In this document: positions 35,096 through 38,204 of the stretch, piece by piece
How positions within the stretch are numbered: the stretch's first letter is position 1
How the letters are laid out: each line of letters begins with the position of its first letter
Assembly: GCF_003334335.1 (NCBI RefSeq)
Contig: NZ_QOWQ01000009.1
Direction: 5' to 3' (one strand)
DNA: 64,000 nt
Source of the DNA: Escherichia coli
Lineage (GTDB): Bacteria > Pseudomonadota > Gammaproteobacteria > Enterobacterales > Enterobacteriaceae
Notes under the pieces: model-generated
What the model saw: the letters and a program-made list of their open reading frames with translations, nothing else
What the model was told of the DNA's origin: nothing
The model's database searches: none
Position numbers and translations under genes: made by a program

Positions 35096-36223
35096 CGCGG
35101 TAACCCTTTTTCAATCACCCGAACCAGACGCTGTTTTTTCGGCAATTGCACTTCGACTATGCACGCATTTCGTCTCTCTATTTGCTGCGCAATCGCCCAC
35201 GCTATGTGCTCATCGAGAAGTGGGTGCTCACCTTTACGACTTTCCAGCGCTGTCAAAATCGTTTCATCCCAAGGGGCATTGCCTAATGCTACGGCGATAT
35301 TACGCAGCCAACGCAGGTGACCAATACGACGAATCGCCGATCCTTCCGTGACTTTTAAAAACTTCTCTTCGCTCCAGGCGAATAACTCAATGAGTTCCGG
35401 TGCGTGTAGCGGCTTACGCGGGCTGAAATCCTCTTCTGTGGTGAGTTGTGAATAGCGATTCCACGGGCAGATAAGCTGGCAGTCATCGCAACCGTAAATA
35501 CGGTTTCCCATTAACGGTCGCAACTCTTCCGGGATCGCCCCTTCAAGTTCGATGGTGAGATAAGAGATACAGCGGCGAGCATCGACGGTATATGGCTCGA
35601 CGATGGCACCGGTCGGGCAAATCGTCATACAGGCCACGCATTTGCCGCATCCTTCCTCGACTGGTTGATCCACGGGCAGCGGAATATCGACCAGCAATTC
35701 GCCTAAAAAGAAGAACGAACCGGCCTCGCGATTGAGGATAAGTGAGTGCTTACCTGTCCAGCCGAGCCCAGCTTTTTCAGCTAACGGGCGCTCGAGAATA
35801 GGCGCAGAATCGACAAACGGTCTAAAATTCAGCGAAACACAATGTTGCTGAATCATCTCGCCCAGCTTTTTGAGTCGGTTGCGCAGAAGTTTGTGATAGT
35901 CACGGCCCAGCGCATAACGGCTAACATAGCCGAGTTTGGGGTTTTTCAGCGTGCTGGCAAATGCGGCGTTAGCAGGAAGGTAATTCATCCGCACGCTGAT
36001 CACGCGCAGCGTACCGGGCAATAACTCATGAGGGCGAGCGCGCAGCATACCGTGACGTGCCATCCAGTCCATTTCGCCGTGGTATTGTTTGTCCAGCCAT
36101 GCTTGCAGTTTGGGCTCGGACTCGCTGAGATCGGTATCGGTAATACCTACCTGCTGAAAGCCCAGTTCCAGCCCCCACTGTTTAATTTTTTGCGCTAACT
36201 GATTGAGATCGAGGGGCTCTGAC

Positions 36224-36225
<2 letters not shown>
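35086..36225 (-). CDS. queG: Epoxyqueuosine reductase QueG
   Basis: 379 aa from [23 protein letters not shown]... with 4Fe-4S Cys motifs; start at the internal Met. Confidence 0.93.

Positions 36226-38204
<1,979 letters not shown>

What the first reader, a model, noticed from the sequence alone, without database searches (positions are those of the whole stretch)
36223..36226. Divergent queG and nnr appear to share a CATG at their start codons
Using the starts that give the expected protein lengths (379 and 515 aa), the minus-strand ATG of queG (36223-36225) and the plus-strand ATG of nnr (36224-36226) overlap by 2 nt. Both promoters would then lie inside the other gene's coding sequence. If instead nnr starts at 36239 there is a 13-nt gap.
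Basis: seen in the sequence. Interest (0 to 1): 0.25.

Follow-up and report, generated by a model that had tools for sequence, protein, structure and literature searches.

The report
Back-to-back start codons of queG/nnr
Two neighbouring E. coli housekeeping genes that point away from each other really do begin on the same four bases (CATG), so each gene's control signals sit inside the other gene; this is rare but already annotated, and the overlapping transcripts are published.

Summary
CATG at 36223-36226 holds the minus-strand ATG of queG and the plus-strand ATG of nnr. RefSeq annotates this same 2-nt overlap in E. coli, including K-12.

The upstream nnr start (36224) is very probably the real one:
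- It has a good Shine-Dalgarno (GAGGGG, -7.2 kcal/mol); the ATG at 36239 has -3.2.
- Its frame is open in 30 of 30 Enterobacterales loci.
- The 36239 codon is ATG in only 9 of 30.
- About ten species have no other start codon before the conserved S-[I/L]-P-H motif.

Both promoters lie inside the partner gene:
- queG has an extended -10 (TGGTATACT, 36265-36257) made of nnr codons 12-14, with a published 5' end at 36249.
- The nnr operon has a -10 TAAAAT (35823-35828) inside queG codons 133-135, with a published 5' end at 35836.

The two mRNAs are therefore complementary over about 414 nt. Published work reports this stretch as RNase III-processed double-stranded RNA and as a divergent "excludon".

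Synonymous sites are frozen where signals overlap codons. No direct N-terminal protein evidence was found. The feature is real, uncommon and already known, so interest is low to moderate.

The parts
36223..36226 (.). CATG shared by the two start codons: queG ATG is the complement of 36225..36223, nnr ATG is 36224-36226 (2-nt overlap)
   Evidence: Sequence. RefSeq annotation. CATG is present in all 34 Enterobacterales loci.
35086..36225 (-). queG coding sequence (379 aa, epoxyqueuosine reductase)
   Evidence: ORF. TIGR00276 equivalog at 510 bits. RefSeq.
36224..37771 (+). nnr (yjeF) coding sequence (515 aa, NAD(P)HX epimerase/dehydratase), counted from the upstream ATG
   Evidence: ORF. PRK10565 equivalog at 1029 bits over residues 1-509. 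The frame is open in 30 of 30 loci.
36211..36216 (+). Shine-Dalgarno of nnr (GAGGGG), the complement of queG codons Pro4-Leu5
   Evidence: Duplex with the 16S 3' end is -7.2 kcal/mol, in the top 4% of plus-strand ATGs in the window. queG Leu5 is CTC in 100% and Asp6 is GAT in 100% of 31 sequences.
36239..36241 (+). Second in-frame ATG of nnr (codon 6), a possible minor or back-up start
   Evidence: Weak Shine-Dalgarno, -3.2 kcal/mol. ATG in 9 of 30, GTG or TTG in 6, non-start codons in the rest. It is the only in-frame start in locus L019, which has a +1 nt insertion.
36257..36265 (-). queG promoter, extended -10 (TGGTATACT on the minus strand), the complement of nnr codons Ser12-Ile13-Pro14
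   Evidence: TGnTAnnnT sits about 40 nt upstream of the queG ATG in all 34 Enterobacterales loci, including those where nnr is not adjacent. AGT, ATA and CCA are each used in 100% of sequences. The deltaPqueG primers of PMC10950094 remove about 36255-36286.
36226..36250 (-). queG 5' leader (about 25 nt, U-rich, no Shine-Dalgarno), overlapping nnr codons 1-9
   Evidence: Published 5' end is U00096.2 4392114 = window 36249. The position predicted from the -10 is 36250. Anti-SD pairing is only -2.2 kcal/mol, which is background. The initiation region is unusually unstructured, z = +1.96.
35823..35828 (+). -10 hexamer TAAAAT of the distal nnr-operon promoter, inside queG codons Asn133-Phe134-Arg135
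   Evidence: It lies 7-8 nt upstream of the published operon 5' end, U00096.2 4391701 = window 35836. GGTCTAAAATTCA is identical in 19 of 19 Enterobacteriaceae, including the rare AGA codon; other families use CGA or CGG.
35836..36249 (.). Region transcribed on both strands: a 388-nt nnr leader antisense to the queG 5' part, and the queG leader antisense to nnr codons 1-9
   Evidence: Conway overlap 4391701-4392114 (413 nt), Lybecker dsRNA MS-212 4391717-4392100, and p19 cluster S-361 4391754-4392109. queG-nnr is listed among 16 divergent excludons of MG1655.
36196..36236 (.). Core of unusually high nucleotide conservation spanning both translation initiation regions
   Evidence: Column conservation is 0.7-1.0 even at third codon positions of both genes. 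There are no differences between K-12 and E. coli 536 from 36206 to 36320, against 27 differences in 35764-36205.
36233..36235 (-). Out-of-frame upstream AUG in the queG leader (complement of nnr His4 CAT), opening a 17-codon ORF across the queG start
   Evidence: Sequence. The CAT codon is conserved in 27 of 30. Function untested.

Best explanation
queG and nnr form a genuine head-to-head overlapping gene pair, and their ATG codons interlock as CATG.

Translation:
- nnr is translated mainly from the upstream ATG (36224), using a Shine-Dalgarno (GAGGGG) spelled by the complement of queG codons 4-5.
- queG is translated from its ATG (36225) on a short, U-rich, unstructured leader of about 25 nt that has no Shine-Dalgarno. 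That leader is the complement of nnr codons 1-9.

Transcription starts from two promoters that face each other about 414 bp apart:
- The queG promoter is an extended -10 (TGGTATACT) built from nnr codons Ser12-Ile13-Pro14.
- The distal nnr-operon promoter (-10 TAAAAT) is built from queG codons 133-135.

Each mRNA therefore carries the antisense of the other's ribosome-binding region. The two RNAs pair in vivo and are cut by RNase III, which is a divergent excludon arrangement.

The double duty of these bases freezes synonymous codon choice in both genes.

The overlap probably arose in an ancestor of Enterobacterales. An in-frame upstream ATG was created next to the queG start (CATA to CATG), adding about 11 residues to Nnr ahead of its domain.

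Shown here: the sequence anatomy, the conservation, the Shine-Dalgarno energies and the identity of both genes. Taken from papers: the transcript 5' ends, the double-stranded RNA and the excludon call. Inferred: use of ATG1 in E. coli itself, reciprocal regulation, and the evolutionary origin.
For: Anatomy and annotation.

For the ATG1 start:
- Shine-Dalgarno pairing is -7.2 kcal/mol against -3.2 for ATG2.
- The ATG1 frame is stop-free in 30 of 30 loci (27 distinct sequences); the other frames carry stops in 29 and 15 of 30.
- Spacer length is 33 nt in 28 of 30 loci, and the one larger insertion is +12, in frame.
- Codon 6 is ATG in only 9 of 30.
- The Yersinia, Serratia, Rahnella, Budvicia, Mixta and Acerihabitans loci have no ATG, GTG or TTG between CATG and the S-L-P-H motif.

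For the promoters:
- TGnTAnnnT lies at -40 from the queG ATG in all 34 Enterobacterales loci, even where nnr is absent.
- The published 5' ends at window 36249 (minus) and 35836 (plus) each sit 7-8 nt downstream of these -10 elements.
- The deltaPqueG deletion of PMC10950094 covers the same bases.
- GGTCTAAAATTCA is invariant in 19 of 19 Enterobacteriaceae.

For dual coding constraint:
- queG L5 CTC, D6 GAT and N8 AAT are each 100%.
- nnr T2 ACG is 96%, D3 GAC 96%, H4 CAT 100%, S12 AGT 100%, I13 ATA 100% and P14 CCA 100%. Typical majority-codon fractions elsewhere are 0.3-0.6.
- In four genomes where nnr is uncoupled from queG, the L/I-P residues persist but the codons change to CCT/CCG, TTG or ATT.

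For RNA overlap: p19-captured and antibody-captured double-stranded RNA cover 4391717-4392109 in U00096.2 coordinates, and the excludon list includes queG-nnr.

For origin: Grimontia has CATA at the homologous place, in frame, stop-free and with the same 31-nt spacing to the -10. The general NnrE domain model starts at residue 17.
Against: - No direct protein-level or initiation-profiling evidence for the nnr N-terminus was found (the held supplement files were partly truncated).
- E. coli retains ATG2 with a weak GGA motif 7 nt upstream.
- One relative (L019, a soil MAG) has a +1 insertion that leaves only ATG2 in frame. ATG2 can therefore apparently suffice, and residues 1-5 are dispensable.
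- Conservation of ATG1's A and T is confounded by the queG start codon. Only the G (36226), the open frame and the Shine-Dalgarno are independent evidence.
- The transcript 5' ends come from RNA-seq coverage quoted second-hand in another paper's supplement, not from primary TSS tables, which I could not obtain.
- Reciprocal regulation has not been demonstrated for this pair.
- The simple sigma-70 scan found no promoter here, because both promoters have poor -35 elements.
Confidence: 0.8

Rival explanations
1. In E. coli, nnr is translated only from the second ATG (36239). The upstream in-frame ATG is an incidental by-product of the queG start codon, the true arrangement is a 13-nt gap, and the annotation is 5 codons too long.
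For: - ATG2 exists in E. coli and its closest relatives.
- Locus L019 can only use ATG2.
- Residues 1-16 lie outside the general NnrE domain model, and TM0922 aligns only from residue 61.
- CAT is fixed by queG anyway, and a following G has a chance probability of about 25%.
Against: - ATG2 has a weak Shine-Dalgarno, -3.2 against -7.2 kcal/mol.
- Codon 6 is a non-start codon in half of the relatives, and about 10 species have no alternative start at all.
- The ATG1 frame is open in 30 of 30 loci, and indels are in frame.
- The Shine-Dalgarno is held by frozen synonymous sites in queG.
- The TetRP re-annotation supplement does not list yjeF among changed starts, which is weak negative evidence.
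Confidence: 0.07
2. Both ATGs are used in E. coli. This gives two Nnr proteoforms that differ by five residues, with ATG1 the major start.
For: - Two in-frame ATGs lie 15 nt apart, each with some purine-rich sequence 6-9 nt upstream.
- ATG, GTG or TTG is kept at codon 6 in 15 of 30 relatives.
- The L019 case shows that ATG2 can work.
Against: - Codon 6 drifts to CTG, ATT, GAG, AAG and others, as expected for a plain hydrophobic or variable residue rather than a maintained start.
- There are no proteoform data.
- A 30S subunit positioned by the GAGGGG Shine-Dalgarno would favour ATG1 (inference).
Confidence: 0.12
3. The overlap is an annotation artefact on the queG side, and queG really starts at a different codon.
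For: The queG ATG has no Shine-Dalgarno; pairing is -2.2 kcal/mol, which is background.
Against: - The ATG is invariant in all 34 Enterobacterales loci.
- With the 5' end at about 36249, it is the first in-frame start on the transcript.
- The next in-frame ATG is codon 52, inside the conserved TIGR00276 region that begins at residue 14.
- The initiation region is unusually unstructured, as expected for starts without a Shine-Dalgarno (PMC7043885).
Confidence: 0.01

Closest known systems
Divergent excludons (overlapping 5' transcripts of neighbouring opposite-strand genes), as catalogued for E. coli MG1655 by ExcludonFinder (PMC12288877)
   Same: - Opposite-strand neighbours whose transcripts overlap at the 5' ends.
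- Double-stranded RNA from the overlap is captured by p19 and by dsRNA antibody, and is RNase III-dependent (PMC7373196).
- queG-nnr is itself on the published list of 16 divergent excludons.
   Different: - Here the overlap extends to the coding sequences and the start codons themselves.
- Mutually exclusive expression, the functional hallmark of an excludon, has not been shown for this pair.
Head-to-head (divergent) overlapping gene pairs in prokaryotes
   Same: The 5' ends of two coding sequences overlap. The pair most likely arose by adoption of an upstream start codon, the mechanism stated in PMC2716372 and PMC4161906.
   Different: This is a very rare class in E. coli: 2 divergent pairs among 663 overlapping adjacent pairs (PMC4161906). 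This one is conserved across an entire order, not strain-specific or a mis-annotation.
Extended -10 sigma-70 promoters (TGnTATAAT with a weak -35)
   Same: - TG one base upstream of a -10 hexamer carrying A at position 2 and T at position 6 (TGGTATACT).
- Poor -35 (TCGGCG).
- Transcript 5' end 7-8 nt downstream of the -10.
   Different: The promoter lies wholly inside the coding sequence of the divergent gene and dictates its codon choice (AGT-ATA-CCA). Promoter activity was not measured here.
4-nt ATGA and 1-nt overlaps of co-directional genes (translational coupling)
   Same: A minimal overlap that involves the start codon and gives a compact genome.
   Different: The genes are on opposite strands, so no ribosome can pass from one to the other. 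Any coupling is at the level of transcription or RNA, and is probably antagonistic rather than cooperative.

Membership tests
Head-to-head overlapping gene pair | Two protein-coding genes on opposite strands whose 5' coding ends share bases | tested here: met
   queG is 35086-36225 (minus) and nnr is 36224-37771 (plus). Both match equivalog models and carry the same annotation in RefSeq.
Head-to-head overlapping gene pair | Both overlapping start codons are the ones actually used | tested here: inconclusive
   Comparative evidence strongly favours both starts. No N-terminal proteomic or initiation-profiling record was found for either protein.
Divergent excludon | Transcripts of the two neighbours overlap at their 5' ends | tested here: met
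   From the literature, not recomputed here. The Conway operon ends at 4391701 (plus) and 4392114 (minus) give a 413-nt overlap. ExcludonFinder lists queG-nnr as present in at least 50% of 58 RNA-seq samples. My -10 elements match both 5' ends.
Divergent excludon | The overlap forms double-stranded RNA processed by RNase III | tested here: met
   From the literature. p19 cluster S-361 at 4391754-4392109 ranks among the top 20 coding clusters, and Lybecker locus MS-212 covers the same stretch.
Divergent excludon | Mutually exclusive or antagonistic expression of the two genes | not testable with these tools
   No expression data for promoter mutants were available. The deltaPqueG strain of PMC10950094 was assayed only for datA RNA.
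Extended -10 sigma-70 promoter (queG) | TG at -15/-14, a -10 hexamer with A(-11) and T(-7), and a start 6-8 nt downstream | tested here: met
   TGGTATACT lies at 36265-36257. The motif is at a fixed distance from the ATG in 34 of 34 Enterobacterales loci. The published 5' end is at 36249.
Extended -10 sigma-70 promoter (queG) | Demonstrated promoter activity | not testable with these tools
   Requires a reporter fusion or 5' RACE with -10 mutants.
QueG (TIGR00276) and Nnr (PRK10565) | Whole-protein score above the curated equivalog cut-off | tested here: met
   QueG scores 510.5 bits against a cut-off of 200. Nnr scores 1028.8 bits against a cut-off of 703, with residues 1-509 aligned to model positions 1-509.

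The most novel reading that the evidence does not exclude
The frozen core around the shared CATG and the face-to-face promoters about 414 bp apart could form a conserved reciprocal switch. In this reading, antisense pairing, RNase III cleavage and polymerase collision make queG (queuosine tRNA maturation) and the nnr-tsaE-amiB-mutL-miaA-hfq superoperon antagonise each other. The conserved out-of-frame upstream AUG in the queG leader (complement of nnr His4) would add a translational brake.

My evidence does not exclude this. It shows conservation well beyond what the two proteins need, but it does not test regulation.
Probability: 0.15. Interest if true: 0.45.

Novelty: already known. Interest (0 to 1): 0.2.

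Why it matters
The pair is a clean, order-wide conserved example of bases doing three or four jobs at once. They act as codon on one strand, codon on the other, ribosome-binding site and promoter.

The cost is visible. Rare codons are held fixed: ATA in nnr, and AGA in queG within Enterobacteriaceae. Ser, Pro, Leu and Asp codons are also frozen.

The example is useful for teaching, for testing models of synonymous-site selection, and as a warning for recoding and genome-refactoring projects. Synonymous edits in nnr codons 1-14 or queG codons 4-12 and 133-135 would hit the partner gene's signals.

The nnr operon feeds into tsaE, amiB, mutL, miaA and hfq. Any antisense cross-talk with queG would link two tRNA-modification pathways, but that remains untested.

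The overlap itself is already in the annotation, and the transcript overlap is already published. This finding therefore adds confirmation and detail, not discovery.

Tried and rejected
- A simple sigma-70 and terminator scan of 35700-36800 found nothing. Both real promoters have weak -35 boxes, so the scan is uninformative, not negative evidence.
- An Rfam scan of 34200-36700 at E<=1 found only tRNAs plus two sub-threshold chance hits, and no known RNA element at the overlap.
- Primary TSS tables were unavailable. Thomason 2015 is not held. Conway 2014 has no held supplements. The Cappable-seq and Kim 2012 supplements gave no hits, probably because the files are truncated. The ExcludonFinder supplements are not held. 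I used the Conway and Lybecker values as copied into the p19 paper's supplement instead.
- Searches for start-site evidence all failed to find the gene. They covered the TetRP supplement, the TRAINSPOTTER N-terminomics supplement (file cut) and the main text of the Ribo-RET preprint. The published Ribo-RET paper is not held.
- The PDB holds no E. coli Nnr structure. The closest is T. maritima TM0922, aligned only from residue 61, so it says nothing about the N-terminus.
- A TTG at 36203, the longest ORF start listed, was rejected as an nnr start because it has no Shine-Dalgarno (+1.3 kcal/mol).
- A proximal nnr promoter in 36180-36200 (TAATTT) was considered. It has no supporting 5'-end data and only a 3/6 match, so it is left open.
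- One broad literature search returned only unrelated eukaryotic antisense papers.

Full report
**1. The observation**

The window reads ...GAGATCGAGGGGCTCTGA-CATG-ACGGACCATACA-ATG-AAG..., with CATG at 36223-36226.
- The complement of 36225..36223 is the ATG of a 379-codon minus-strand ORF (35086-36225).
- 36224-36226 is the ATG of a 515-codon plus-strand ORF (36224-37771).
- A second in-frame ATG lies at 36239.

NCBIfam equivalog models identify the two ORFs as QueG (TIGR00276, 510 bits) and Nnr/YjeF (PRK10565, 1029 bits, residues 1-509 aligned to model positions 1-509).

The stretch from queG to nnr is identical to E. coli K-12 MG1655. RefSeq annotates exactly this 2-nt overlap in MG1655 and in two other strains. 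The region is present in 5426 of 5426 complete E. coli genomes.

**2. Which nnr start is real?**

I fetched 80 loci encoding QueG relatives from species-representative genomes. In 30 Enterobacterales loci nnr abuts queG exactly as in E. coli. These loci come from Enterobacteriaceae, Erwiniaceae, Yersiniaceae, Budviciaceae, Edwardsiella and Acerihabitans.

Four results favour the upstream ATG (ATG1).
- Its frame is free of stop codons between ATG1 and the conserved Ser-[Ile/Leu]-Pro-His motif in 30 of 30 loci (27 distinct sequences). The other two frames contain stops in 29 and 15 of 30.
- The spacer is 33 nt in 28 loci, 45 nt (in frame) in one and 34 nt in one.
It is GTG or TTG in 6, and CTG, ATT, GAG, AAG, GAA, CGA, CAG or TGC in the rest. 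The Yersinia, Serratia, Rahnella, Budvicia, Mixta and Acerihabitans loci have no canonical start between CATG and the motif.
- ATG1 is preceded at 7-9 nt by GAGGGG, which pairs with the 16S 3' end at -7.2 kcal/mol, in the top 4% of the 1037 plus-strand ATGs in the window. ATG2 reaches only -3.2 kcal/mol, about the 33rd percentile.

Two caveats apply.
- The A and T of ATG1 are fixed by the queG start codon, so only the G, the open frame and the Shine-Dalgarno are independent evidence.
- One soil MAG (L019) carries a 1-nt insertion between the two ATGs, which leaves only ATG2 in frame. If the assembly is correct, ATG2 can serve as the start there.

I found no N-terminal proteomic or initiation-profiling entry for nnr. 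I put ATG1 as the main start at about 0.8.

**3. Signals embedded in the partner gene**

*nnr Shine-Dalgarno.* It is the complement of queG codons Pro4-Leu5. Across 31 sequences:
- queG Leu5 is CTC, Asp6 is GAT and Asn8 is AAT, each in 100%;
- Gln12 is CAA in 93%;
- Leu codons elsewhere in queG have a majority-codon share of only 0.3-0.6.

*queG translation region.* Upstream of the queG ATG there is no Shine-Dalgarno; pairing is -2.2 kcal/mol, which is background. This region is nevertheless conserved at the nucleotide level: nnr Thr2 is ACG in 96%, Asp3 is GAC in 96% and His4 is CAT in 100%.

Both initiation regions are less structured than almost all dinucleotide shuffles:
- the queG leader plus 36 nt folds at -3.0 kcal/mol against a shuffle mean of -6.9, and 196 of 200 shuffles fold at least as well;
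- the nnr region folds at -7.9 against -12.8, and 200 of 200 shuffles fold at least as well.

Low structure is the feature reported for E. coli start sites in general (PMC7043885). This fits, as an inference, a queG start that relies on accessibility rather than on a Shine-Dalgarno.

*queG promoter.* nnr codons 12-14 are AGT, ATA (or TTA) and CCA in 100% of sequences, although Ser has six codons and ATA is a rare codon. Their complement is TGGTATACT, an extended -10 promoter.
- A TGnTAnnnT motif lies at -40 to -43 (once -52) from the queG ATG in all 34 Enterobacterales loci. These include Pectobacterium, Brenneria, Photorhabdus and Xenorhabdus, where nnr is not adjacent.
- The same motif is present within 120 nt upstream of queG in 58 of 70 gammaproteobacterial loci.
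- Where nnr has been separated from queG, the Leu/Ile-Pro residues remain but the codons change to CCT or CCG, TTG and ATT. This is a natural control showing that the promoter, not the protein, fixes the codons.
- The Katayama laboratory's deltaPqueG allele deletes about 36255-36286, which are the same bases (PMC10950094).

**4. Transcript ends and RNA overlap (from papers)**

The supplement of PMC7373196 tabulates three data sets for yjeS/yjeF in U00096.2 coordinates:
- the Conway et al. overlapping transcripts, with promoter 4391701 on the plus strand, terminator 4408049, and an overlap of 413 nt running 4391701-4392114;
- the Lybecker et al. dsRNA locus MS-212 (4391717-4392100);
- the p19-captured cluster S-361 (4391754-4392109), which is among the top 20 protein-coding clusters.

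A read in the same table (CAUGACGGACC... at 4392087) calibrates the conversion as window = U00096.2 - 4355865.
- The queG 5' end falls at 36249, 7-8 nt downstream of the extended -10, giving a leader of about 25 nt.
- The nnr-operon 5' end falls at 35836, 7-8 nt downstream of TAAAAT (35823-35828), giving a 388-nt leader that runs antisense through queG codons 1-130.

The TAAAAT box is the complement of queG Asn133-Phe134-Arg135. The sequence GGTCTAAAATTCA, with the rare AGA codon, is identical in 19 of 19 Enterobacteriaceae. Other families use CGA or CGG and lose the TA, so this distal promoter looks family-specific.

ExcludonFinder lists queG-nnr as one of 16 divergent excludons found in at least half of 58 MG1655 RNA-seq samples (PMC12288877).

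**5. Mechanism**

*Shown.* The start codons interlock. Each gene's ribosome-binding region, and one promoter for each gene, are written in the partner's codons. Those codons are frozen.

*From the literature.* The promoters face each other about 414 bp apart. The RNAs overlap and form RNase III-processed double-stranded RNA.

*Inferred.* Polymerase collision, occlusion of the queG promoter by nnr-operon transcription, and antisense pairing over both ribosome-binding sites would make the two genes antagonistic. No data test this for the pair.

**6. Origin**

The divergent queG-nnr adjacency is widespread in Gammaproteobacteria, usually with a gap of 20-130 nt. Grimontia has CATA at the homologous site, in frame and stop-free, with the same 31-nt spacing to the -10. 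Its nnr starts 22 nt further in.

A single A-to-G change would create the Enterobacterales start and an 11-residue extension. That extension lies outside the general NnrE domain model, which begins at residue 17. Tolumonas also has a CATG overlap, but with a different spacer length. This matches the textbook route to divergent overlaps, adoption of an upstream start codon (PMC2716372).

**7. Comparison with what is known, and verdict**

Divergent coding overlaps are rare. One survey counted 2 divergent pairs among 663 overlapping adjacent pairs in E. coli (PMC4161906).

This pair is a bona fide member of that small class. It meets the structural criteria of a divergent excludon, but the functional criterion (mutually exclusive expression) is untested.

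Nothing here is new in kind. The overlap is in RefSeq, the promoter has been deleted in a published strain, and the RNA overlap is in three published data sets. This analysis adds three things:
- the comparative case for ATG1;
- the codon-level footprint of the embedded signals;
- a plausible origin for the overlap.

Interest is 0.2 and novelty is "already known".

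Noticed in passing
window 34629-34816: The window has two tandem tRNA-Gly(GCC) genes (34629-34704 and 34741-34816), whereas MG1655 has three (glyV, glyX, glyY). One repeat unit is missing, while the adjacent queG-nnr DNA is identical to MG1655.
   Followed up: partly
window 37743-37771: tsaE (37743-38204) starts 29 nt before the nnr stop codon on the same strand. This is a longer co-directional overlap than the usual 1 or 4 nt, and it is annotated the same way in RefSeq.
   Followed up: no
window ~35050-35103: The 17-codon yjeV ORF (plus strand) overlaps the 3' end of queG convergently by 18 nt. It lies in the datA region, and PMC12288877 lists yjeV-queG as a convergent excludon and yjeV-queG-nnr as a non-contiguous operon.
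   Followed up: no
window 36233-36235 (minus strand): The queG leader contains an out-of-frame AUG 10 nt upstream of the queG AUG, formed by the complement of nnr His4 CAT. It opens a 17-codon ORF ([17 protein letters not shown]) across the queG start. The CAT is kept in 27 of 30 relatives; it is TTG or CTG on the queG strand in the other three.
   Followed up: partly
window 36207-36210: A GATC (Dam methylation) site lies 14-17 nt upstream of the nnr ATG. It is formed by queG Asp6 GAT plus the first base of Leu7, and GAT is used in 100% of relatives. Whether methylation matters here is unknown.
   Followed up: no
L019 (soil MAG CTSoil_132), around locus 2486-2502: A 1-nt insertion between the two nnr ATGs (CATAGAAATGAAG against CATACAATGAAG) puts ATG1 out of frame, with a stop after 21 codons, and leaves ATG2 in frame. 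This is either an assembly error or a natural switch to the second start.
   Followed up: partly
L028 (Brenneria), L031 (Pectobacterium), L033/L046 (Photorhabdus), L036 (Xenorhabdus): nnr has been moved away from queG (147 nt, about 1.2 kb, or more than 2.5 kb). The CATG and the extended -10 upstream of queG are retained, and in L028 and L031 the former nnr ATG now opens only a short ORF of 4 and 14 codons, a relic of the overlap.
   Followed up: partly
window 36432-36617 and 34654-34793: There are two sub-threshold Rfam hits: ilvB-OMG at 21 bits against a gathering score of 96, and YrlA at 40 bits against 69, the latter across the tRNA-Gly repeats. Both are judged to be chance or tRNA-derived.
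   Followed up: no
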